Part shown: positions 4,733-61,867 of the stretch, in pieces
How the letters are laid out: every line of letters begins with the position of its first letter
How positions within the stretch are numbered: the stretch's first letter is position 1
Sequence record: NC_054913.1
Source: Escherichia phage F2
Strand: one strand, 5' to 3'
DNA length: 64,000 bases
Translations under genes and position numbers: made by a program
The notes under the pieces: model-generated
What the model saw: the letters and a program-made list of their open reading frames with translations, nothing else
What the model was told of the DNA's origin: nothing
Databases searched by the model: none

Positions 4733-5742
4733 TGAAAACAATTATGAAAGGCTACTTTGGTAGCCACCTTTATGGAACTTCTACTCCAGAATCTGATGTA
4801 GATTTTAAAGAAATCTTTGTTCCTCCTGCTCGCGATATTCTTATCGGAAATGTTAAAGAGCATATGAGTAAAAACACTAACAACACATCATCTAAAAACA
4901 CCAAAGATGATATTGACCATGAACTGTACAGTCTTAAGTATTTCTTTAAATTAGCAGCAGATGGTGAAACTGTAGCATTGGATATGCTTCACACTCCGCC
5001 TGAACTAGTGGTTAAATCTGATTTGCCTGATGTATGGAAATTTATCCAAGACAATCGTTCACGGTTTTATACAACTAACATGAAATCCTATTTAGGATAT
5101 GTCCGCAAGCAAGCTTCTAAATACGGTGTCAAGGGTTCTCGTTTGGCCGCATTACGTGATGTATTGAAAGTAGTTAATCAAATCCCTGACCAGTGGGTCG
5201 ACTATCAAGAAGGAATCCCTGATAGACTTCGTCGTACTAAGGTAGAAGATATCAAACACAGACTCCCTGAAAACGAGTTCTGTGAATGGGTATTCCATAA
5301 CCATGAGAAAACAGGCCCGCAAACGTTCTATACCGTGTTGGGTCGTAAATATCAGACAACACTTTCTCTTATTGAGCTTAAGCAGTCTTTGAATAAACTT
5401 GATGCTGAATATGGCGAACGTGCTCGTAAGGCTGAAGCGAATGAGGGCATTGACTGGAAAGCTCTAAGTCATGCTTGTCGTGGTGGACTCCAACTATTGG
5501 AAATTTACAAAACTGGTGACTTGGTTTATCCACTTCAAGACGCTCCATTTATTCTCGACGTGAAGCTGGGTAAACACCCATTTAAAACTGTTCAAGAGTT
5601 TTTGGAAGGTGTGGTCGATCAAGTAGAAGCAGCATCCATTGAAGCTTCTAAGAACGGTATGCAGCAAAAAGTAGACATGGGTTTTTGGGATGACTTCCTT
5701 GAACAAGTCTATCTCGAAAATCATAATTCTTACTATAAATAA
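4729..5742 (+). CDS. nucleotidyltransferase (Pol-beta superfamily fold)
   Basis: GS-x9-DVDF motif (GSHLYGTSTPESDVDF) at N-terminus; 337 aa. Confidence 0.65.
   Translation: MMKTIMKGYFGSHLYGTSTPESDVDFKEIFVPPARDILIGNVKEHMSKNTNNTSSKNTKDDIDHELYSLKYFFKLAADGETVALDMLHTPPELVVKSDLPDVWKFIQDNRSRFYTTNMKSYLGYVRKQASKYGVKGSRLAALRDVLKVVNQIPDQWVDYQEGIPDRLRRTKVEDIKHRLPENEFCEWVFHNHEKTGPQTFYTVLGRKYQTTLSLIELKQSLNKLDAEYGERARKAEANEGIDWKALSHACRGGLQLLEIYKTGDLVYPLQDAPFILDVKLGKHPFKTVQEFLEGVVDQVEAASIEASKNGMQQKVDMGFWDDFLEQVYLENHNSYYK
5734..5741 (+). promoter_or_regulatory. T4-type late promoter TATAAATA
   Basis: Exact TATAAATA upstream of 5774 ORF. Confidence 0.4.
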
Positions 5743-5773
5743 GTAGATAAATAACCATTAACTTGAGGTAAAT

Positions 5774-6055
5774 ATGAAAAAATTAGTAATTGGTTTATTC
5801 ACAGTAATGATGGCATTCTCTGTTGGTGCTACCACGGGTGCTGCTGGCGGTAGTGCAGGAGCTGGTGGTAACCAGTCTTCTGGGCCTTCTAATGGTTCGG
5901 TAAATGCATCACATTCTCAGGGTATTGAGAACATTAAATCAAGCTATATTAATAGCACGGCCGGACAAGCAACTGAAGCATGGTCAAAGGGACGAGTAGT
6001 TACTCGCTCCGTATTCTGTGATATGCCTAATTATGTTGCTAAGTGCGATAAGTAA
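5774..6055 (+). CDS. hypothetical secreted Gly/Ser-rich protein
   Basis: Signal peptide MKKLVIGLFTVMMAFSVGA followed by Gly-rich low-complexity region. Confidence 0.55.
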   Translation: MKKLVIGLFTVMMAFSVGATTGAAGGSAGAGGNQSSGPSNGSVNASHSQGIENIKSSYINSTAGQATEAWSKGRVVTRSVFCDMPNYVAKCDK

Positions 6056-7583: not shown

Positions 7584-7612
7584 GTTTACAAGGTCTATGG
7601 TTATGTTATTAT
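7584..7612 (+). promoter_or_regulatory. T4-type early promoter
   Basis: gtttac 7584-7589, tattat 7607-7612. Confidence 0.6.
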
Positions 7613-7639
7613 AGACCTATCAACTACTGGAGGTAAAAC

Positions 7640-8188
7640 ATGAACGCTAAAGATATTTTCAACCTGGTAAATTATAACGACGGTAAATTTAAATCTGAAG
7701 CACAAAGCAAGTTCTTTAATGACATTGCTTATGGTAACGAGATTACCGTGGACGGAGGTCAGATTTTCAAATCTCGCTGGAATTGGATTGCTATCATCGA
7801 TTCAGTTGGAATTGTGGAAGTCTACAAAAACACTAACAAAAAACGTACATTATTCTGGTCTCGTGAAACTAACGAGCAGTACAAAAAGGATAAAGCATCT
7901 CGTTTATCCAAAGTAACCCAGGAAGATATCGAGTTTATCAAGAAAGATATCGAGTTTATCAAGAAAGATATCGAGATGTACGAAAATTTAATCGCTGAAG
8001 ACCAGGCAGTACTCGATAAGTTTGATGAAATTAAAGCTTCTCGTGAAATCCCTGACTTCATGAAAGAAACAGTAAACGAACGATACGCTCTCACTTCAGA
8101 ACGTATTGCAAACTATACAAAACAGAAAGCAGAACGTATTAGTACTCTTCGGAAATTTGAAGAACGTTTAAAGACGGTTCACGCATAA
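7640..8188 (+). CDS. hypothetical protein with internal tandem repeat
   Basis: ORF with GGAGG RBS; contains in-frame 21-bp tandem repeat. Confidence 0.55.
   Translation: MNAKDIFNLVNYNDGKFKSEAQSKFFNDIAYGNEITVDGGQIFKSRWNWIAIIDSVGIVEVYKNTNKKRTLFWSRETNEQYKKDKASRLSKVTQEDIEFIKKDIEFIKKDIEMYENLIAEDQAVLDKFDEIKASREIPDFMKETVNERYALTSERIANYTKQKAERISTLRKFEERLKTVHA
7925..7975 (+). repeat. 21-bp direct tandem repeat (about 2.4 copies) inside CDS
   Basis: gatatcgagtttatcaagaaa repeated, encoding DIEFIKK. Confidence 0.9.
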
Positions 8189-35446: not shown

Positions 35447-36616
35447 ATGCAAAAAATGAATACCTTTAAAATCGGAACGAATTTTGATTTAGCTCTTCTT
35501 GATAAAATCGTAGAGCTCAATAAAACTTATCCTAATAGCTTGATAAACGAAGTATACGGCTCTACAAGAGAAATGGCTTTTGTAGCAGCCAGACCTGATT
35601 TTAGGCTTCCTGACGTTGACAAAAAGATGTTAGAAGATTACGTTAAACGTTGTAACGAATTAGGTATTTGCTTTAACTATACACTCAACACGATAAATCC
35701 TGGTTCAAAAAGAGAACTAGTTGAGTGGAAGAAGAAAGCTATTCAGGACTATGTTCAGTATCTTTGGTCAATAGGCGTATGGCGTATTACTATCGCTAAC
35801 CCTGTTGTTATGGAAATTGTTCGTGAAGTCAATAAAGACATTGAGATTGAAGTTTCAACAATTCTACATGTCGATGCTGTAACTCAAATCAAATACTTGC
35901 ATGACCAATATAATATCAAAAAGGTCTGCTGTGGAATTCATAAGAACCGTTCAGTTTCTTTCCTGAAGCGTGCAGCAGAGTTTTGTAATAAGAACAATAT
36001 AATATTTGAAGTTCTTGTAAATGAGTTCTGTTCTAATGCTGGTAAAGGGTATACAACACATTGTAGCTATCGTGACTCTTGCTATATTTTCCATAGCACC
36101 GATGTTACAGTAGATGATGCCAAATCCTTAAATGGATATCCAATGCAGCACTGTATTAAAGCTCGTGATACAGACCCATTTAACTGGTTGAGAACTCGTT
36201 TTGTTCGTCCTCAAGATTTGAAACTTTATAATGATATTGGTATCACTCAATTCAAAGTTTCAGGACGTACAGGTAGCACCGACTACATTTTGAAAGTTCT
36301 TGAAGCTTACGCTTCTGAAAAGTTTGAAGGTAATTTGTTGGAATTGTGGAAGCCTTTAGAGACCATTTTCACTCTTGAAAATGAGACTGAGTTTTCACAT
36401 ACGGTAAATATTGAAACCTCTTTGTTAGATGGCTTTTTAGAAAAAAGGTGGTTCAAACATCCAGATTTCGATTGTGCTAATGAAATCTGCGGGACGACGT
36501 GTACATATTGTGAAAGATATTATAAACGTCAGTTATCTAAAAATGGGTTATCAGAAAACTCTATATCTATTATTGATATAACTAACTCTGATGACGCTTT
36601 GAGGTACCCAGAATGA
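35447..36616 (+). CDS. hypothetical enzyme, Cys-rich (function unassigned)
   Basis: 389-aa ORF with GGCGAG RBS; C-terminal Cys cluster CANEICGTTCTYCERYY. Confidence 0.55.
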   Translation: MQKMNTFKIGTNFDLALLDKIVELNKTYPNSLINEVYGSTREMAFVAARPDFRLPDVDKKMLEDYVKRCNELGICFNYTLNTINPGSKRELVEWKKKAIQDYVQYLWSIGVWRITIANPVVMEIVREVNKDIEIEVSTILHVDAVTQIKYLHDQYNIKKVCCGIHKNRSVSFLKRAAEFCNKNNIIFEVLVNEFCSNAGKGYTTHCSYRDSCYIFHSTDVTVDDAKSLNGYPMQHCIKARDTDPFNWLRTRFVRPQDLKLYNDIGITQFKVSGRTGSTDYILKVLEAYASEKFEGNLLELWKPLETIFTLENETEFSHTVNIETSLLDGFLEKRWFKHPDFDCANEICGTTCTYCERYYKRQLSKNGLSENSISIIDITNSDDALRYPE

Positions 36617-36894: not shown

Positions 36895-37611
36895 ATGGGA
36901 AAACATAACACAATGAAATATATTAAAGCCGCAGATTTTCAATCCGCATTTAAAGCTGTCAATCGTGAAATTTTAGAAAACCCGGAATTCGTTACTGATT
37001 CTCGTATTGGACGTTGTAATGAAATTGGGTCTATGACAGTAGTTGTTGATACCCCTTCATCATTCAAAATGACAGACCCACGTATTAATCGCATCTCTTA
37101 TGAATATGCTGAAGATTTCTGGAAATTTATGATTTCTGGTGGTACTGATGCAGAAGAAGCATTTAAGGCATATCCTAACGTTGCTAAATTTATTTCTAAA
37201 CCTAAATCAGATGCTTTGCCTGCAAACTTCAACACTTTCTACGGTCCACGAATTGCGGCCCAGTTACCAACTCTTCTAAAAGAACTTAAAGAAAAACCTA
37301 ACTCTCGAAGAGTTGTGTTCCAAATTCTAGAAAGTTCTGATCAGGCTTTGCTTGATTCAGACGAAACACTTGAATATCCATGTACTGACTCAGTGACTTA
37401 TTATATTCGTGATGGTAAGCTTTATACCCACTGTCATATGCGTTCTCAGAACTGTGCTGTTGTTATGCAGTTGGATTTTTATCTCCAAGGAAAATTACTT
37501 CATTATATCGCTAACGAATGTGGTGTAGAAGTTGGTGATTATACTCATACCATGGTAAGTGCCCATGTGTTTGAACGTGATTTTGATTATGTTAAAGGAT
37601 TCCTTGTCTAA
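36895..37611 (+). CDS. 42: dCMP hydroxymethylase (thymidylate-synthase fold)
   Basis: Position and conserved pattern NSRR...CTDSVTYYIRD...MRSQN...SAHVFERDF resembling T4 gp42. Confidence 0.7.
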   Translation: MGKHNTMKYIKAADFQSAFKAVNREILENPEFVTDSRIGRCNEIGSMTVVVDTPSSFKMTDPRINRISYEYAEDFWKFMISGGTDAEEAFKAYPNVAKFISKPKSDALPANFNTFYGPRIAAQLPTLLKELKEKPNSRRVVFQILESSDQALLDSDETLEYPCTDSVTYYIRDGKLYTHCHMRSQNCAVVMQLDFYLQGKLLHYIANECGVEVGDYTHTMVSAHVFERDFDYVKGFLV

Positions 37612-38510
37612 TGGCTATTTTCCGCGTACCTATCTTGAGTATGCGGTCTTATGAAACTGGACAGTATGCTATCCTTAAGGATGGCAACTTCCAACTTCAT
37701 TTGCACCGTGCTAATCCGGGTGATGTGATTACATATCCACGTAATGCATCTGATATTAAAGAATGCGAACGTCTTTTCCCAGAATTTAAGTTTGTTCCAT
37801 TATGGTATAAAGATAACGCATATAACACTCGTAAATATTTCTGGTCTGAAAATGAATTTGTGGTTGATTCATTAATTGATTATTATGATTGTGATTTTCT
37901 AATCACAGATATCACTGGATATGACGGCAATTTTGACGTAGAATTCAATTTCAATATCACTGCAGACCCTAATAAACCACGTTTTTATATTGACGAATTC
38001 TTAAAAACCGACATGTTGTCTGTTAATCGTTCACTTCAAACTACTGTGTTGAATGAACGTCAAAAAGAAGTGCTGGTTAACGCAGGTGCAGATGGTAATA
38101 AGATTATCGTAACGCAGAAAGTTATACGTCCTTCCATCATGCAGCGTCTTGTAGGTGATTTGGCTCCTATTCATCTAGATGGTATTTTTCATCCATTTCG
38201 AATTAGTGACCCGTGCTATCGTTTTGAACAAGTGGTTGAATGTGCAATTCAATTAGGTCAACCGCTTTATATAACCGATCCAAATAATAGCTTCGACAGA
38301 AATAAGTATCCTGAAGAAGCGCTGATTCGAATTTTTAAACCAACTAAAACTGAGTACTATCAAATTCTTAAAGGACGTCCGAAGATTCAATACTTCGAAA
38401 ATCCTGAAGAAGTATTCCATCCAGGTCTTGGCGAGTTCATCTACTTTAATGCTTTAATTTCTTCGCCGTATAATATACCTAAATATGAAGATGTCGTAAT
38501 CGAGGAATAA
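37611..38510 (+). CDS. hypothetical protein in beta-gt position (candidate DNA sugar transferase)
   Basis: 299-aa ORF replacing T4 beta-gt between 42 and uvsX; no recognisable beta-gt similarity. Confidence 0.5.
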   Translation: MAIFRVPILSMRSYETGQYAILKDGNFQLHLHRANPGDVITYPRNASDIKECERLFPEFKFVPLWYKDNAYNTRKYFWSENEFVVDSLIDYYDCDFLITDITGYDGNFDVEFNFNITADPNKPRFYIDEFLKTDMLSVNRSLQTTVLNERQKEVLVNAGADGNKIIVTQKVIRPSIMQRLVGDLAPIHLDGIFHPFRISDPCYRFEQVVECAIQLGQPLYITDPNNSFDRNKYPEEALIRIFKPTKTEYYQILKGRPKIQYFENPEEVFHPGLGEFIYFNALISSPYNIPKYEDVVIEE

Positions 38511-56387: not shown

Positions 56388-58205
56388 ATGATTAAAAATG
56401 AAATTAAGGTATTGTCAGATGTAGAACATATTAAGAAACGAAGTGGCATGTATATTGGTTCTTCGGCCAAAGAAGCCCACGAGCGTTTTTTGTTTGGTAA
56501 ATATCAACAAGTTGAATATGTTCCTGGTCTGGTTAAATTAATCGATGAGATTATTGACAACTCGGTTGATGAAGCTATTCGTACATCATTTAAGTTTGCA
56601 AATAAAATTGATGTGCAAATTAAAAATAATCAAGTCTCAGTAGAAGATAACGGACGTGGTATTCCTCAAGGTTTAGTTACCGACCAAACAGGTGAACAAA
56701 TTCCTGGGCCTGTAGCAGCCTGGACTATTCCAAAGGCCGGCGGTAACTTTGGTGATGACTCTGAACGTAAGACCGGTGGTATGAACGGCGTCGGGAGTAG
56801 TTTAACTAATATCTTCTCTACGTTGTTTACAGGCATCACGTCAGATGGCGAAAATGAAATCACTGTTAACTGTTCAAACGGAATGGAAAACAAATCATGG
56901 TCTTCTAAGAAATCTAAAGGTAAAGGCACTAAAGTAATCTTCACTCCCGATTTCTCTTCATTTGAAGAGCATAATTTATCTCAAATTTATTTAGATATTA
57001 CTTTAGACCGACTTCAAACATTGGCAGTCGTTTATCCTGATATCAAGTTCACATTTAATGGTAAAAAGGTTGATGGTAATTTTAAACGATTTGCTAAACA
57101 ATTTGGTGAAGATAACATCATTCAAGAAAATGATAAAGTCTCTATAGCATTCACAACATCACCAGACGGCTTCCGTCATTTAACTTATGTGAATAACATT
57201 CATACTAAAAATGGTGGTCATCATGTTGAATGTGTAATGGATGATATCTGCGAACATCTTTTGCCCGGCATTAAAAAGAAATATAAGGGTATTGAAGTCA
57301 CTAAAGCTCGTGTTAAAGAATGTCTCACAATGTTGATGTTTATTAGAGACATGAGCAACATGCGTTTTGATTCTCAGACTAAAGAACGTTTAACGTCAAC
57401 GTATGGTGATATTCGTAATCATATCCAATTAGATGCTAAGAAAATTGCTCAGGCACTTCTTAAAAATGAAGCTTTGATTATGCCTATTGTTGAAGCAGCA
57501 TTAGCTCGTAAATTGGCAGCAGAAAAGGCTGCAGAAACTAAAGCAGCTAAAAAGGCAACTAAAGCTAAGGTTCATAAGCATATTAAAGCTAACCAATGTG
57601 GTAAAGATGCGGATACGACATTGTTTTTAACAGAAGGTGATTCGGCAATTGGTTATCTCATTGATGTTCGTGACCGTGAACTACACGGCGGATTCCCATT
57701 ACGTGGTAAGGTGATGAATAGCTGGGGTATGTCATATGCTGATATGATGAAGAACAAAGAGCTCTTTGATATCTGTGCTATCACAGGTCTTATTCTTGGT
57801 GAAAAGGCAGAGAATACAAACTATCGTAATATTGCAATTATGACTGATGCCGATCATGATGGTCTTGGAAGTATTTATCCGGCTTTGCTTGCTTTCTTTA
57901 GTAATTGGCCTGAATTGTTTGAACAAGGACGTATTCGCTTTGTTAAAACGCCTGTAATTATTGCACAAATTGGCAAAACACAAAAATGGTTTTATACTGT
58001 AGCTGAGTATGAAGAAGCTAAAGATACACTTCCTAAGCATAGTATTCGATACATCAAGGGATTGGGCTCCCTTGAAAAGTCAGAATATCGTGAAATGATT
58101 CAGAACCCTGTGTACGACGTAGTTAAACTTCCTGAAAATTGGAAAGAACTCTTTGAAATGTTGTTGGGTGATGATTCAGAACTTCGTAAAGAATGGATGT
58201 CCTAA
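56388..58205 (+). CDS. 39: DNA topoisomerase II large subunit (GyrB-like; gp39 and gp60 equivalents in one ORF)
   Basis: GHKL ATPase motifs, TOPRIM region; 605 aa uninterrupted. Confidence 0.9.
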   Translation: MIKNEIKVLSDVEHIKKRSGMYIGSSAKEAHERFLFGKYQQVEYVPGLVKLIDEIIDNSVDEAIRTSFKFANKIDVQIKNNQVSVEDNGRGIPQGLVTDQTGEQIPGPVAAWTIPKAGGNFGDDSERKTGGMNGVGSSLTNIFSTLFTGITSDGENEITVNCSNGMENKSWSSKKSKGKGTKVIFTPDFSSFEEHNLSQIYLDITLDRLQTLAVVYPDIKFTFNGKKVDGNFKRFAKQFGEDNIIQENDKVSIAFTTSPDGFRHLTYVNNIHTKNGGHHVECVMDDICEHLLPGIKKKYKGIEVTKARVKECLTMLMFIRDMSNMRFDSQTKERLTSTYGDIRNHIQLDAKKIAQALLKNEALIMPIVEAALARKLAAEKAAETKAAKKATKAKVHKHIKANQCGKDADTTLFLTEGDSAIGYLIDVRDRELHGGFPLRGKVMNSWGMSYADMMKNKELFDICAITGLILGEKAENTNYRNIAIMTDADHDGLGSIYPALLAFFSNWPELFEQGRIRFVKTPVIIAQIGKTQKWFYTVAEYEEAKDTLPKHSIRYIKGLGSLEKSEYREMIQNPVYDVVKLPENWKELFEMLLGDDSELRKEWMS

Positions 58206-58226
58206 GCTCCTTCGGGAGCTTCATTT
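58206..58226 (+). terminator. terminator hairpin (UUCG tetraloop)
   Basis: agctccttcgggagct + T-rich. Confidence 0.55.
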
Positions 58227-58247
58227 TAATTTTAATAAGGCTTAATT

Positions 58248-59348
58248 ATGAAAGTTATGTTTATCCCATCTCGTGCAGTCCCGTTTAATCCTGACCGTGT
58301 ACAAGGTGGCCTTGAAGCAGTACATTTAAATGTGTTGAAATATCTTGTGTCCATCGGCGCTGATATTGATTATATCGGCTTTGATAATGACACGTTTGGT
58401 GATTGGAAAGTTACACACCATCCTGTTGGTCATCTGACTAAATTCAGTCTAGGTATGAGTTATACTATGGCTCGTAAGATTGTTGAACTAGCCGGCATCC
58501 ATGAATACGATTTTGTTGTTACTATGGAACCGACTAAACTAACCGTTCAGGCAATTAAAGACGCAGGTCTCTCTAAAGTTCATAAGAATTTTATGGCAAC
58601 ACCATTTGAACCGGTATCTCGTGGCATTGTTCAAATTTGGGACCAGACTATTCAAATTCATAAGAATGGTGGTAAGAGTTATGCTCCTACTAAAGCCTTC
58701 CGTGAATTTGAACGCAAATATTGTTATATGACTTCAGGTCTGACTGACAAAATTGATTATGATTATTGGCGAGCAAATCCGTTGTTTGAAGCCGAAGATT
58801 ATCCGGTTATTTGTTTGAATGAGAAACCTGAAGTTCTTCCGGCGACTGATCTGATTATTAGTGCACAACGTTATGACACTAAAATGCGTCGCACTGATGT
58901 TGCTCTTGAAGCAATTAAAGCACTAGGCGAAAATGGTGTAGGATACTGTCCAAGCAAATGGGCACCACCAGCTAAATATCCTGTTATTATTGATGCTCCA
59001 CACAGTGAAATCATGGAACGTCTTAAAACAGCTAAAGCACTTATTAATACTTGTCCTGACACAGGTACAGTAGAGAATAGTTCTATTGAAGCCATCTCTA
59101 AAGGTGTCCCTGTAATCCAGTTAGTTTTTAAGGATTATCCTCATGCGACATTTGAATACGACCCAGATACTGTGCGTGTAGAAATTGATTCCTCTACTCC
59201 TAAGAAAGAAGTAGTTGCGCTTTACACAAAAGCTGTATTAGAATTCACTGATACATACGAAGCTCGAGTTAAACGTGCTGAAGCAGTATGGAAGAAGTAT
59301 AACCGAGATGCAGTTGTTGCGATGTGGGATAAAATCTTCACAGCGTAA
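58248..59348 (+). CDS. putative GT-B-fold glycosyltransferase (candidate hmC sugar transferase)
   Basis: N-terminal GT4-like pattern PDRVQGGLEAVHLNVLKYL; 366 aa; located between 39 and rIIA. Confidence 0.55.
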   Translation: MKVMFIPSRAVPFNPDRVQGGLEAVHLNVLKYLVSIGADIDYIGFDNDTFGDWKVTHHPVGHLTKFSLGMSYTMARKIVELAGIHEYDFVVTMEPTKLTVQAIKDAGLSKVHKNFMATPFEPVSRGIVQIWDQTIQIHKNGGKSYAPTKAFREFERKYCYMTSGLTDKIDYDYWRANPLFEAEDYPVICLNEKPEVLPATDLIISAQRYDTKMRRTDVALEAIKALGENGVGYCPSKWAPPAKYPVIIDAPHSEIMERLKTAKALINTCPDTGTVENSSIEAISKGVPVIQLVFKDYPHATFEYDPDTVRVEIDSSTPKKEVVALYTKAVLEFTDTYEARVKRAEAVWKKYNRDAVVAMWDKIFTA

Positions 59349-59440
59349 ATCCTGAATAGCCTGAGGCACTATTACACATAAGATGATAGATTATATGGTC
59401 TTTAGTAATAGTGCCCTAGGAATCTACTGAAGAGAATATT

Positions 59441-59641
59441 ATGAGAACATATAACGTGGACTTGGAACTTTTTGATAAAGCTGTGCTCCGGGAATTCCGG
59501 CTTATCCAAAGATTTTTTGATATCGAATCAGCTGAAGCCTTTAAAGAACGCTTTAAGGAAATTCGATATAAAATACAAACCGATACAGCTACTAAAGAAG
59601 AACTTCTTGAAGTAGCAGAAATTTTTAAACGTAACTTGTGA
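59441..59641 (+). CDS. hypothetical protein
   Basis: 66-aa ORF with GAAGAGAA RBS. Confidence 0.45.
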   Translation: MRTYNVDLELFDKAVLREFRLIQRFFDIESAEAFKERFKEIRYKIQTDTATKEELLEVAEIFKRNL

Positions 59642-59653
59642 TGAGAGAAAAAT

Positions 59654-61867
59654 ATGATTATTGAAACGGCTAAAGAAACGATTATTGGTTCAGGTGGTAA
59701 GAGCACAGCATTTACTATTCAAGGCAATAGCAAAGTTTATAAGATTTTGTCTAATGACCTTTATACAAACAAAGAATTGGCTTGTGTACGTGAATTAATC
59801 ACAAACTGTATCGATGGTCAAATTCTTAATGGTTGCACTGATAAGTTTATTGTTCAGGCTCCAGGTCGTTTAGACCCACGTTTTGTAGTTCGAGACTTTG
59901 GTCCTGGTATGAGTGATTTCACCATTCGAGGTAATGACGAAGAGCCAGGAATCTATAACTCATATTTCGCTTCAACTAAAACATCGAGTAACGATTTCAT
60001 TGGTGGATTCGGACTCGGCTCTAAAGCTCCACTAGCGTATACCGATACGTTTAACCTTACGTCTTATCACAACGGTGAAGTTCGTGGTTATGTAATTTAT
60101 CAAGATGACAGTGGTCCACAGATTAAGCCGACCTTCGTAGATAAGATGGGCCCTGATGACCGGACCGGCGTTGAAGTAGTTGTGCCTGTTAACCCAGAAG
60201 ATTTTGAAAAGTTCGCATCCGAAATTGCTTATGTTATGCGTCCTCTCGGCGATATTGCAGAAGTTCGTGGTGTTAAAGATATCAAATACTTCCCGGAATT
60301 CGATGATGTATATTTGGCCAAGGAAGCTCCATGGGGTGAACGTGGTAATATCATGGCTGTTTATGGTGGTATTGTATATCCAATCGGAAGTGTTATTAAA
60401 GAACAAACATGGATGATGACGCGATGCACTACAGCTTATATTAAATTCCCTATGGGTGAACTAGATGTAGCCCCGTCTCGTGAAGCATTGTCATTTGATA
60501 AACGTACAGTAGCAAATATCCATAAACGTGTTGCAGAAATCGATGCAAAATTATTTGCTGAAGACTCTAAGAAATGGATTGATTGTGAATATCCACGTCA
60601 TGTATTCCGTGAAATCGATTCTCTTGGTTACTCTGCTCGTAGATACATGGAAAAAGCCGGTTCTAATATTGAATCACTGAAATATTCTAAAGAACAGCTA
60701 ACTTATTCTGAGTTGTACAAACGTTTTAAAATGGGTCCTGAATGGTGCAACCTTGGTGTTGTATACGATATCGTTTCAGATCCACGACTTCGTCGTATTC
60801 GTGAAAGCGGAAGCTCGTCTTCAACTATTTCAATTAATAGCCTGCTAGGTATTAGTCGTAAGCATATTGATATTGTTATTGACGATGTGAAAGGCCGCGT
60901 ACCAATGATGCGTGCTCTGAACGATGCTTTGACTTCCACCGATGCATCAACACTCGTTGATAAGGTTCCTTCCGGATGGGGTAGTAGCGTATTATTCGTT
61001 AATCCGGAAGATGAAGTTGCAATGAAACTTCTAGAACGATTAAAGGTTATTTTCGCTGGTGATAGCCTTAAATTTTATAAGACCTCTGAAATTCTTGCAT
61101 TAGTTAAACCGTGGATTGAAGTTAAAGAACGTTCATCACAGCCTCGTCCTAAATCACCGAGTGCTCATCGGTTCTTTAAGAATGAAAACGATGTTTGGGT
61201 ATCAGAAGATCTCTTTATTCCGGCCGGTAAAGCTGATGAGATTCAAGGTTATGTTGTAATTCGTAATCGTTCTAACGCTGAATGTCTTGACGCAGATAAA
61301 GGTTGGTTGAACTATGATTCTAGTTTCTTGACTCGTATTGCCGATTTATCAGGTATTAAAGAGTTCACTGTAGTCCGTCCACAGATTGCTAAGAAAGTTC
61401 GTAAACTTGGTGAAGTAGAATGCTTGTTCGAAAAATCAATTAATGACTATATTACGCTAATTGATAAAGTGGATTATGATGAGTATGTATCGCCAAGTCG
61501 TAGAGCACAGCCTTATTTGAATCATATTACTCGTAATGAAGAGCTTAACTTCCTTAGTAAGTATTTTAGCTCTAAGAACAAAGAAATCAGTAAAGATTTT
61601 GCAAAACTTTCAACAGTAAATAATCGTTGGGGATGGAATCGATTCGCAGGTGCTGATAATAGAGACCTGAACAGGAAGTTAGAATTGTGTGCTAAAATTT
61701 TCGATAAGCTTAAAGATAATGCTTACGATAATGATGATAAAATGGTTATTGAATTTGAAACCAATTATCATATTGTGTCAGAATACATGGGACGACGTGG
61801 TACTCTTTCTAAAGAACAGGTCGCTCAAATCGTTAAATTCATGAAGGCCGTGGAAGCGGCCAAATAA
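59654..61867 (+). CDS. rIIA: rIIA protein
   Basis: 737 aa; N-terminal region RELITNCID resembles T4 rIIA; gene order 39-rIIA-rIIB. Confidence 0.8.
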   Translation: MIIETAKETIIGSGGKSTAFTIQGNSKVYKILSNDLYTNKELACVRELITNCIDGQILNGCTDKFIVQAPGRLDPRFVVRDFGPGMSDFTIRGNDEEPGIYNSYFASTKTSSNDFIGGFGLGSKAPLAYTDTFNLTSYHNGEVRGYVIYQDDSGPQIKPTFVDKMGPDDRTGVEVVVPVNPEDFEKFASEIAYVMRPLGDIAEVRGVKDIKYFPEFDDVYLAKEAPWGERGNIMAVYGGIVYPIGSVIKEQTWMMTRCTTAYIKFPMGELDVAPSREALSFDKRTVANIHKRVAEIDAKLFAEDSKKWIDCEYPRHVFREIDSLGYSARRYMEKAGSNIESLKYSKEQLTYSELYKRFKMGPEWCNLGVVYDIVSDPRLRRIRESGSSSSTISINSLLGISRKHIDIVIDDVKGRVPMMRALNDALTSTDASTLVDKVPSGWGSSVLFVNPEDEVAMKLLERLKVIFAGDSLKFYKTSEILALVKPWIEVKERSSQPRPKSPSAHRFFKNENDVWVSEDLFIPAGKADEIQGYVVIRNRSNAECLDADKGWLNYDSSFLTRIADLSGIKEFTVVRPQIAKKVRKLGEVECLFEKSINDYITLIDKVDYDEYVSPSRRAQPYLNHITRNEELNFLSKYFSSKNKEISKDFAKLSTVNNRWGWNRFAGADNRDLNRKLELCAKIFDKLKDNAYDNDDKMVIEFETNYHIVSEYMGRRGTLSKEQVAQIVKFMKAVEAAK

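What the first reader, a model, noticed from the sequence alone, without database searches (positions are those of the whole stretch)
58248..59348. GT-B-like glycosyltransferase between gene 39 and rIIA; nothing resembling T4 alpha-gt or beta-gt recognised in the window
The 366-aa ORF has a GT4-like N-terminal pattern and sits at a locus where T4 has no glycosyltransferase, while nothing resembling T4 alpha-gt was recognised between genes 47 and 55 and the beta-gt slot holds an unrelated 299-aa ORF. It is the best candidate for the hmC sugar transferase that uses the NDP-sugar made by the cassette at 32.5-36.6 kb. This corresponds, as far as I recall, to the RB69 locus previously proposed as an arabinosyltransferase.
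Basis: partly seen in the sequence, partly recalled or inferred. Interest (0 to 1): 0.65.

Follow-up and report, generated by a model that had tools for sequence, protein, structure and literature searches.

The report
Second DNA arabinosyltransferase of RB69-like phage

Summary
The ORF is real (58248..59348, +, 366 aa, between topoisomerase gene 39 and rIIA.1/rIIA) and under strong purifying selection (dN/dS 0.01-0.04). The window is an RB69-like Mosigvirus and the ORF is the ortholog of RB69 ORF003c/gp3. It is 99% identical to the "phage HY126 glycosyltransferase" solved with and without UDP (PDB 9IQZ/9IR0), so the GT-B fold and UDP binding rest on experiment. No sequence homolog of T4 alpha-gt or beta-gt exists in the window.

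Two parts of the interpretation fail.
- The acceptor base is 5-hydroxycytosine, not hmC. The window's ThyA homolog carries the published D169N signature.

The 366-aa family occurs only where DNA carries more than one arabinose: one copy in Mosigvirus (two sugars), two copies in Acinetobacter phages (three sugars), none in Thanatos or LC53 (one sugar). The best explanation is a UDP-arabinofuranose-dependent transferase that adds the second, beta-1,3-linked arabinose on DNA. This is already published (2018, 2025, 2026), so novelty is low.

The parts
58248..59348 (+). 366-aa GT-B glycosyltransferase. It is the ortholog of RB69 ORF003c/gp3 and of the HY126 glycosyltransferase (PDB 9IQZ/9IR0), and probably of the Bas46 'Aat'. 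Proposed beta-arabinofuranosyltransferase 2.
   Evidence: ORF. PHROG 8302, E 1e-222. 99% identity to 9iqz/9ir0. 100% identity to the HX01 and PNJ-9 proteins. dN/dS 0.01-0.04. Single copy in the window.
58237..58240 (+). AAGG Shine-Dalgarno-like element 7 nt upstream of the ATG
   Evidence: Read directly from the sequence.
58204..58221 (+). G+C-rich hairpin with a UUCG loop (AAGCTCCTTCGGGAGCTT) beginning at the last base of the gene 39 stop codon and lying 26 nt upstream of the ORF. It may be an mRNA-stabilising or terminator-like element.
   Evidence: Terminator-like scan and sequence. Function not tested.
37611..38510 (+). 299-aa compact GT-B glycosyltransferase (RB69 gp46:47, DLP3 gp79 and Thanatos TH1_063 family). 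Proposed first, base-proximal alpha-arabinosyltransferase and pathway partner of the finding.
36895..37611 (+). ThyA-family 5-hydroxy-dCMP synthase (RB69 gp48 ortholog). It makes the acceptor base.
   Evidence: Pfam Thymidylat_synt. D169N signature 'MRSQN', shared with the DLP1 and Thanatos homologs but not with T4 gp42 or E. coli ThyA. Enzymology: PMC13326640.
32511..33146 (+). SIS-domain arabinose-5-phosphate isomerase (donor sugar synthesis)
   Evidence: Pfam SIS. The syntenic gene is annotated as API in DLP1 and KLB31. PMC13326640.
33328..35013 (+). Bifunctional nucleotidyltransferase and sugar kinase that makes UDP-arabinofuranose (AfhE analog)
   Evidence: Pfam NTP_transferase above its cutoff (39.1 bits; cutoff 21.2), plus sub-threshold matches to kinase families (Fructosamin_kin, EcKL, APH, all below their cutoffs). 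PMC13326640.
34998..35399 (+). Small HAD-like phosphatase (AfhF analog) in the donor pathway
   Evidence: No Pfam hit. Assigned by synteny with the DLP1 'HAD-like protein' and the RB69 gp51 assignment in PMC13326640.
38512..39060 (+). Nucleotide (thymidylate-kinase-like) kinase adjacent to the 299-aa GT
   Evidence: Weak P-loop matches. The syntenic gene is annotated as thymidylate kinase in DLP1 and KLB31. RB69 gp45 in PMC13326640.

Best explanation
The ORF encodes a soluble, UDP-sugar-dependent GT-B glycosyltransferase that acts after replication on phage DNA. Its proposed substrate is cytosine already converted to 5-O-(alpha-D-arabinofuranosyl)-5-hydroxycytosine. The ThyA-like 5hodCMP synthase would make the base, and the 299-aa GT-B enzyme would add the first sugar. 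Using UDP-arabinofuranose from the 32.5-35.4 kb cassette, the 366-aa enzyme adds a second D-arabinofuranose in beta-1,3 linkage. This gives the di-arabinosyl-5-hydroxycytosine that dominates Mosigvirus DNA and broadens protection against host nucleases and other defences. Shown by experiment on a 99%-identical protein: the fold and UDP binding (PDB entry titles). Shown for 40-43%-identical paralogs (DLP3 gp76 plus gp77): transfer from UDP-Araf onto arabinose already on DNA. Shown for Mosigvirus DNA: the mono- and di-arabinosyl-5hoC chemistry. Inferred here: that this particular protein performs the second addition; that Asp88/Glu94 and Arg208/Arg214/Glu281 are catalytic or donor-binding residues; and that the two GTs differ in stereochemical course, because one makes an alpha and the other a beta linkage, presumably from the same donor.
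For: (1) Identity: 97-98% nucleotide identity to RB69-like phages, 100% protein identity to HX01 and PNJ-9, and 99% to PDB 9iqz/9ir0, 'phage HY126 glycosyltransferase (with UDP)'. (2) Copy number tracks the number of sugars. The 366-aa family is found in 210 phage records with 266 places: one copy in Mosigvirus and two in Acinetobacter phages, with no Serratia, Shewanella or Klebsiella record. The 299-aa family is found in 347 records across all these groups, with one place per record in all but three (350 places in all). The published chemistry is one pentose in Thanatos, one arabinose in LC53 and two in Bas46, two in Bas46/47, up to two in RB69 and the Mosigvirus NP, and three in DLP3. LC53 is in the database but is absent from the 366-family hits. 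In Thanatos the only other candidate, TH1_065, is a U32 peptidase-like protein, not a GT. (3) In Acinetobacter phage DLP1 the two family members lie inside the arabinosylation operon, directly after the 299-aa GT and the kinase. The window ORF is 43% and 40% identical to them. (4) Purified DLP3 gp76 plus gp77 with UDP-Araf convert RB69 DNA (mono- and di-Ara) to tri-Ara (PMC13326640). (5) PMC13326640 and PMC13390438 both propose this gene as the second arabinosyltransferase. Deleting the arabinosyltransferase Aat in Bas46 gives viable but defence-sensitive phage (PMC13216743). (6) dN/dS of 0.01-0.04 indicates a functional gene. Conserved G20, R208, R214 and E281 fit GT-B donor binding.
Against: I could not reach any direct assay of this protein or of RB69 gp3; He et al. 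2026 and Mahler et al. 2025 are not held. In the DLP3 experiments no single GT was active alone, and gp77 alone was not reported to convert the mono-Ara fraction of RB69 DNA to di-Ara, so the one-enzyme-one-sugar picture may be too simple. I infer that the Bas46 'Aat' is this gene; the texts I could read do not say so. The family matches no curated GT model, and its EX7E motif is non-canonical (G273-x7-E281). My own AF2 model of it is poor (pLDDT 58.7).
Confidence: 0.8

Rival explanations
1. It is the base-proximal transferase that puts the first arabinose on the modified cytosine.
For: It was the only GT recognisable by HMM methods in 2018 (PMC6024577). It has a GT-B fold and binds UDP. It is annotated 'putative hmC-arabinosyltransferase' in Bas47.
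Against: The family is absent from phages that still glycosylate cytosine with one pentose (Thanatos, LC53). A second GT-B gene, found wherever the cassette is found, sits next to the ThyA homolog. The paralogs DLP3 gp76/77 act on already arabinosylated DNA, and no GT acting alone modified 5hoC-only DNA. The Aat deletion in Bas46 is viable.
Confidence: 0.07
2. It does not work as an independent second-step enzyme. It works only as part of a complex, either a homo-oligomer or together with the 299-aa GT, and may be needed for efficient or processive arabinosylation overall.
For: DLP3 gp76 and gp77 are each inactive alone and work only together. The 9iqz entry contains chains A to H. RB69-type DNA keeps a mono-Ara fraction of about 1:4.
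Against: Mosigvirus has a single family member. It is encoded 20 kb away from the 299-aa GT and so is not co-translated with it. There is no evidence of an interaction.
Confidence: 0.08
3. It glycosylates something other than DNA, such as a host envelope glycan, a protein or a small molecule, and only resembles the DNA-modifying enzymes.
For: Its closest non-phage structural neighbours act on lipids and small molecules (PimA, BshA, MshA). Its pI of 6.3 is not that of a typical DNA binder.
Against: T4 alpha-GT also has a pI of 6.1. The family lies inside the DNA-arabinosylation operon in Acinetobacter phages. Its paralogs modify DNA in vitro. Its distribution is strictly nested within phages that carry the arabinosylation cassette.
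Confidence: 0.03

Closest known systems
RB69 ORF003c / gp3 (RB69p003, NP_861693.1), proposed 'beta-arabinosyltransferase 2'
   Same: Ortholog: 99.2% protein identity, same locus between gene 39 and rIIA.1, same length.
   Different: Nothing of substance. RB69 gp3 itself has not been assayed in the literature I could read.
Phage HY126 glycosyltransferase, PDB 9IQZ (apo) and 9IR0 (UDP complex), released 2025-07-16
   Same: 99% identical over the full length. This provides the experimental fold and the nucleotide ligand.
   Different: A few substitutions (visible). The associated paper (probably He et al., Nat Chem Biol 2026) could not be read.
Acinetobacter phage DLP3 gp77 and gp76 (counterparts DLP1_075 and DLP1_074)
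   Same: Same family: 43% and 40% identity over the full length. They use UDP-Araf and act on arabinose already attached to DNA.
   Different: They are a lineage-specific duplicate pair, 58% identical to each other, located inside the operon. Together they add the third, beta-1,5-linked arabinose. The window has one copy, 20 kb from the cassette, and the DNA stops at two sugars.
T2/T6 beta-1,6-glucosyl-alpha-glucose transferase (ba-gt), which makes gentiobiosyl-hmC
   Same: Functional analogy: a second phage GT that extends a sugar already on DNA rather than modifying the base (PMC6024577; PMC13390438).
   Different: Hexose from UDP-glucose on hmC, rather than pentofuranose on 5hoC. Sequence relatedness was not tested here.
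T4 alpha-glucosyltransferase (GT72) and beta-glucosyltransferase (GT63)
   Different: No detectable sequence or profile similarity. They act on the base's hydroxymethyl group rather than on a sugar, and sit at different genomic slots.
Bacterial GT4 retaining glycosyltransferases (PimA 2gej, BshA 3mbo, MshA 3c4q)
   Same: Best non-phage structural neighbours. Shared features are the Gly-rich N-terminal loop, an Arg pair at the start of the C-terminal domain, and the 'E-A-x-x-x-G-x-P-V' helix.
   Different: No Pfam Glycos_transf_1 or Glyco_transf_4 match. The first Glu of EX7E is replaced by Gly273. The acceptor is a glycosylated nucleobase in DNA. The product is a beta-furanoside, so the mechanism may differ.

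Membership tests
Phage RB69 gp3 / HY126 GT / PHROG 8302 family (arabinose-extending DNA glycosyltransferases) | Full-length sequence homology to RB69 ORF003c and the HY126 GT | tested here: met
   PHROG 8302, E 1.2e-222, positions 1-366 of 366. 99% identity to 9iqz. 99.2% identity to RB69.
Phage RB69 gp3 / HY126 GT / PHROG 8302 family | Occurs only in phages that also carry the 5hodCMP synthase, the UDP-Ara cassette and the 299-aa GT | tested here: met
   All of these are present in the window. The 210 records of the family are a subset by genus of the 347 records holding the 299-aa GT.
Phage RB69 gp3 / HY126 GT / PHROG 8302 family | Transfers arabinofuranose from UDP-Araf onto arabinosyl-5hoC in DNA | not testable with these tools
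   Shown only for DLP3 gp76 plus gp77 (PMC13326640). Inferred for this protein.
GT-B fold glycosyltransferase superfamily | Two Rossmann-like domains with the nucleotide-sugar bound in the C-terminal domain | tested here: met
   A 99%-identical protein is solved, also with UDP (9iqz/9ir0). The model-to-structure TM-score is 0.72, and further hits are all GT-B.
CAZy GT4 / Pfam Glycos_transf_1 (PF00534) and Glyco_transf_4 (PF13439) | Match to the curated family HMMs above the gathering score | tested here: not met
   No Pfam family at E<=10 and no NCBIfam match. Only sub-threshold hints in distant members: P0015 Glyco_trans_1_4 at E 0.013 and P0010 GT4-conflict at E 0.0028.
CAZy GT4 / Pfam Glycos_transf_1 | Canonical E-x7-E motif in the C-terminal domain | tested here: not met
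   The family has G273-x7-E281 with a conserved E276. Only the most distant member, P0015, keeps E-x7-E.
T4 alpha-glucosyltransferase family (GT72) | Sequence or profile homology to T4 a-gt | tested here: not met
   BLASTP E 13. hhalign probability 0.3%. Thomas et al. reported a remote HHpred link using deeper profiles.
T4 beta-glucosyltransferase family (GT63) | Sequence homology to T4 b-gt | tested here: not met
   BLASTP E 5.5 for the 366-aa ORF. tblastn over the whole window gives a best E of 4.6.

The most novel reading that the evidence does not exclude
The enzyme may be an inverting beta-arabinofuranosyltransferase built on a GT4-like scaffold, which is normally retaining. The two arabinoses on Mosigvirus DNA have opposite anomeric configurations (alpha on the base, beta-1,3 on the sugar). 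They presumably come from one UDP-Araf donor, so one of the two GT-B enzymes must invert. The 366-aa family has replaced the first Glu of the GT4 EX7E motif with an almost invariant Gly (G273) and gained a conserved Glu three residues later (E276). That pattern is consistent with a change of mechanism or of donor-sugar recognition for a pentofuranose. The family may also work only as an oligomer, as the co-dependence of gp76 and gp77 hints. The unread structure paper may already settle this.
Probability: 0.35. Interest if true: 0.35.

Novelty: already known. Interest (0 to 1): 0.15.

Why it matters
The gene itself is not news. It was proposed as the RB69 arabinosyltransferase in 2018. A near-identical protein was crystallised with UDP (released 2025). 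Papers from 2025-2026 place it as the second of two sequential DNA arabinosyltransferases.

What matters for the scan is the correction:
- RB69-type phages do not make hmC at all. They make 5-hydroxycytosine and build an arabinofuranose chain on it.
- The window holds two GT-B enzymes, not one.
- The number of GT-B genes per genome predicts the number of sugars on the DNA. That rule can be used to predict the modification state, and so the restriction, CRISPR and sequencing behaviour, of the many therapeutic-candidate Mosigvirus and Acinetobacter phages whose records still call this gene 'hypothetical' or 'DNA alpha-glucosyltransferase'.

Tried and rejected
- Pfam (E<=10) and NCBIfam (E<=1) scans of the 366-aa protein gave nothing.
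- The word-indexed search found 5 clusters. The exhaustive search of 1.84 billion representatives found 11 hits. The alignment was therefore too shallow, and the AF2 model of the 366-aa protein is poor (pLDDT 58.7). It was used only to retrieve 9iqz/9ir0 and the GT-B neighbours.
- hhalign of the 366-aa family against the 299-aa family and against T4 a-gt, and of the 299-aa family against T4 b-gt, all gave probabilities below 1%. The relatedness is visible only in structure.
- BLASTP of the 366-aa against the 299-aa protein showed no similarity.
- He et al. 2026 (Nat Chem Biol) and Mahler et al. 2025 (Cell Host Microbe) are not held. Searches for 9IQZ/9IR0, HY126 and '5ara-hC' found no further text. 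The exact published assay results for this protein, and the identity of 'Aat', are therefore taken second-hand.
- I considered Thanatos TH1_065 as a hidden third-family GT. Rejected: it is a peptidase-U32-like protein.
- I considered the JK45 ortholog as a natural knockout. Rejected: the gene is intact and is followed by a tandem duplication of about 500 bp.
- pI did not discriminate DNA-acting from other GTs.
- GC and GC3 show no sign of recent foreign origin.
- The promoter scan found fewer sigma-70-like sites than shuffled sequence gives.

Full report
**Observation.** The ORF listing shows a 366-aa ATG ORF at exactly 58248..59348 (+). It is flanked upstream by a 605-aa topoisomerase II large subunit (56388..58205) and downstream by a 66-aa rIIA.1-like ORF (59441..59641) and rIIA (59654..61867). 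An AAGG lies 7 nt before the ATG, and a UUCG hairpin begins at the last base of the gene 39 stop codon. Base composition and GC3 match the neighbours. Against the orthologs in Bas47 and JK45, dN/dS is 0.01-0.04, so this is a functional gene.

**Source.** Megablast of 56388..61867 gives 97-98% identity over the full length to RB69-like Mosigvirus phages such as PHB12, PNJ-9 and RB69. The ORF corresponds to RB69ORF003c, and the Bas47 record already calls it 'putative hmC-arabinosyltransferase'. At protein level it is 100% identical to the HX01 and PNJ-9 proteins.

**Fold.**
- Pfam and NCBIfam give no match. PHROGs gives the function-unknown family 8302.
- The family is tiny in sequence space: 5 clusters in the 5.8-billion-protein index and 11 representatives among 1.84 billion.
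- A family profile hits one PDB sequence at E 9e-197. Foldseek identifies it as 9iqz 'phage HY126 glycosyltransferase' and 9ir0 'with UDP' (released 2025-07-16, 99% identity). BshA, PimA, MshA and other GT-B enzymes follow.
- My own AF2 model is poor (pLDDT 58.7). The conclusion rests on the solved near-identical structure.
- The GT-B fold and UDP binding are therefore experimental facts for this protein in all but a few residues.

**The rest of the observation.**
- T4 a-gt and b-gt, taken from NC_000866, have no tblastn match in the window better than E 2.7.
- T4 has no GT between gene 39 and rIIA.

**The '299-aa unrelated ORF'.**
- The ORF at 37611..38510 follows the ThyA homolog directly. 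Its family is broad, with at least 138 clusters.
- With a 51-sequence alignment, AF2 gives pLDDT 95 and pTM 0.89.
- Foldseek finds UDP-GlcNAc 2-epimerases and MshA.
- It is therefore a second GT-B glycosyltransferase, unrelated to T4 b-gt and to the 366-aa protein only at sequence and profile level.
- Each family occurs once in the window.

**Chemistry.**
- PMC13326640 (NAR 2026) shows by MS/MS and NMR that RB69 DNA carries beta-D-Araf-(1-3)-alpha-D-Araf linked by an ether to C5 of 5-hydroxy-deoxycytidine, not to hmC. It also shows that the ThyA homolog gp48 makes 5hodCMP with O2 and a flavin.
- PMC13390438 states that the earlier ara-hmC assignment was erroneous, and finds mono- and di-Ara at 1:4 in the Mosigvirus NP.
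- In my alignment the window's ThyA homolog reads MRSQN, with Asn at the E. coli D169 position. This is the published signature, shared with the DLP1 and Thanatos homologs.

**Which transferase does what.** tblastn against 50,697 phage records gives the following.
- The 366-aa family is in 210 records with 266 places. That is 154 Mosigvirus-type records with one copy each, plus 56 records with two copies each (55 Acinetobacter phages and one record named Tegunavirus). The same result came from two different queries.
- The 299-aa family is in 347 records covering Mosigvirus and Acinetobacter, plus Klebsiella, Serratia, Enterobacter, Proteus, Yersinia, Edwardsiella, JS98-like, Pseudomonas and Shewanella phages, with one place per record in all but three (350 places in all).
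- Published chemistry: Thanatos has one pentose. LC53 has one arabinose and Bas46 has two. Bas46 and Bas47 are doubly arabinosylated. RB69 and NP have up to two. DLP3 has three.
- LC53 is in the database and lacks the 366-aa family. In Thanatos the gene after the kinase is U32-peptidase-like, not a GT.
- The number of GT-B genes thus equals the maximum number of sugars. The 299-aa family is the constant member and the 366-aa family the variable one.

**Linkage and biochemistry of relatives.**
- In Acinetobacter phage DLP1 the gene order is API, NTP-transferase/kinase, HAD, ThyA homolog, 299-family GT, kinase, 366-family GT, 366-family GT. The family is therefore physically part of the arabinosylation operon there.
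- The window protein is 43% and 40% identical to the two copies, which are 58% identical to each other. The duplication is lineage-specific, and the window protein is co-orthologous to both.
- PMC13326640 reports that purified DLP3 gp76 plus gp77 with UDP-Araf convert RB69 virion DNA to the tri-arabinosyl form. Neither enzyme works alone, and no single GT modified 5hoC-only DNA.
- That paper and PMC13390438 propose RB69 gp46:47 as the first transferase and gp3 as the second.
- PMC13216743 reports, citing Mahler et al., that deleting the arabinosyltransferase Aat in Bas46 sensitises the phage to a plasmid-borne defence.

**Sequence features.** Across 13 family members, invariant or nearly invariant residues include G20, D88, E94, R125, G141/G142, Q207, R208, D210, R214, N267, T268, G273, T274, E276, E281, A282, G286 and P288.
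- The C-terminal block TGTVENxSxEAISKGVPV resembles the GT4 EX7E helix, but Gly273 stands where the first Glu would be. Only the most distant member keeps E-x7-E.
- The two sugars have opposite anomeric configurations. If the donor is shared, one of the two enzymes must invert. Which one inverts is not established by anything I could read.

**Conclusion.** The finding is a correct re-identification of a known gene with an outdated functional reading. I assign 0.8 to 'second, sugar-extending UDP-Araf transferase acting on DNA'. The rivals are the first-step transferase (0.07), an obligate complex or helper (0.08) and a non-DNA target (0.03). Novelty: already known.

**Side observation.**
- The cassette's 389-aa peptidase-U32-like ORF (35447..36616) is at least 80% identical in 220 phage records. 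No Acinetobacter record appears among the genera listed, and the DLP1 operon lacks it. All 13 of its cysteines are conserved.
- In 48 phages, including LC53, Thanatos and Klebsiella, Yersinia and Enterobacter phages, a type II chorismate mutase (Pfam CM_2, above its cutoff) lies between the U32-like gene and the ThyA homolog. This window has none.
- The bacterial hydroxylation factors RlhA (ho5C in rRNA) and TrhP (ho5U in tRNA) use prephenate, the product of chorismate mutase, as hydroxyl donor. TrhP is the prephenate-dependent counterpart of the O2-dependent TrhO (PMC13602947). That RlhA and TrhP belong to the U32 family is from my own knowledge.
- PMC13326640 does not mention U32, chorismate or prephenate.
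- This points to an untested, oxygen-independent route to 5-hydroxycytosine. It is more interesting than the finding itself.

Noticed in passing
window 35447..36616 (+). Compare L004:6462-7598 and 7595-7852 (Thanatos) and L006:4483-5658 and 5655-5894 (Klebsiella phage KLB31).: The arabinosylation cassette holds a peptidase-U32-like protein that is at least 80% identical in 220 phage records, far more conserved than the neighbouring GT, with all 13 Cys conserved. No Acinetobacter phage appears among its hits. In 48 phages a type II chorismate mutase (Pfam CM_2, above its cutoff) sits between it and the ThyA-like 5hodCMP synthase; this window has none. The bacterial factors RlhA and TrhP use prephenate for C5 hydroxylation of C and U in RNA. 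This suggests an oxygen-independent, prephenate-dependent route to 5-hydroxycytosine. It is not discussed in PMC13326640, which guesses 'sugar or heterocycle reductase'.
   Followed up: partly
[not shown]
   Followed up: yes
window 36895..37611 (+): The ThyA homolog has Asn at the E. coli D169 position ('MRSQN') and Asp at the N177 position. This is the published signature of 5-hydroxy-dCMP synthases rather than dCMP hydroxymethylases, so this phage should contain no hmC.
   Followed up: yes
L004:4995-5897 (Thanatos TH1_063): The Thanatos homolog of the 299-aa GT-B protein was reported to act as a UDP-xylose pyrophosphorylase in vitro (PMC12838424). That activity is hard to reconcile with a GT-B glycosyltransferase fold and with the separate nucleotidyltransferase TH1_060 in the same cluster.
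   Followed up: no
L005:1702-2300 (Shigella phage JK45, downstream of the ortholog): A tandem duplication of about 500 bp fuses the first five codons of rIIA.1 to residues 237-366 of the glycosyltransferase (annotated JK45_00003, 136 aa). It could be a real duplication or an assembly artefact.
   Followed up: partly
Records NC_018855 (HX01), MN723850, NC_049493, OP946501 and others: Orthologs and paralogs of this protein are annotated 'DNA alpha-glucosyltransferase' in several RefSeq and GenBank records, and 'hypothetical protein' in most others. Both the sugar and the anomer in the former annotation are probably wrong.
   Followed up: no
window 56388..61867 compared with phi25-307, a20 and AV111: Some close relatives carry an insertion of about 800 bp, annotated as a homing endonuclease, somewhere in the gene 39 to rIIA interval. 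This window lacks it.
   Followed up: no
window 58204..58221 (+) and 59365..59416 (+): A UUCG-loop hairpin begins at the last base of the gene 39 stop codon. A longer inverted repeat (GGCACTATTA ... TAATAGTGCC) lies between the glycosyltransferase stop and rIIA.1. The PhAPEC2 record annotates a terminator somewhere under the gene 39-rIIA match.
   Followed up: no
and one search hit lists: One record named 'Tegunavirus' carries the 366-aa family at below 60% identity, apparently in two copies. Yersinia Tegunavirus phages such as TG1 show only the 299-aa GT. It may be a misnamed Acinetobacter-type phage, or an independent acquisition.
   Followed up: no
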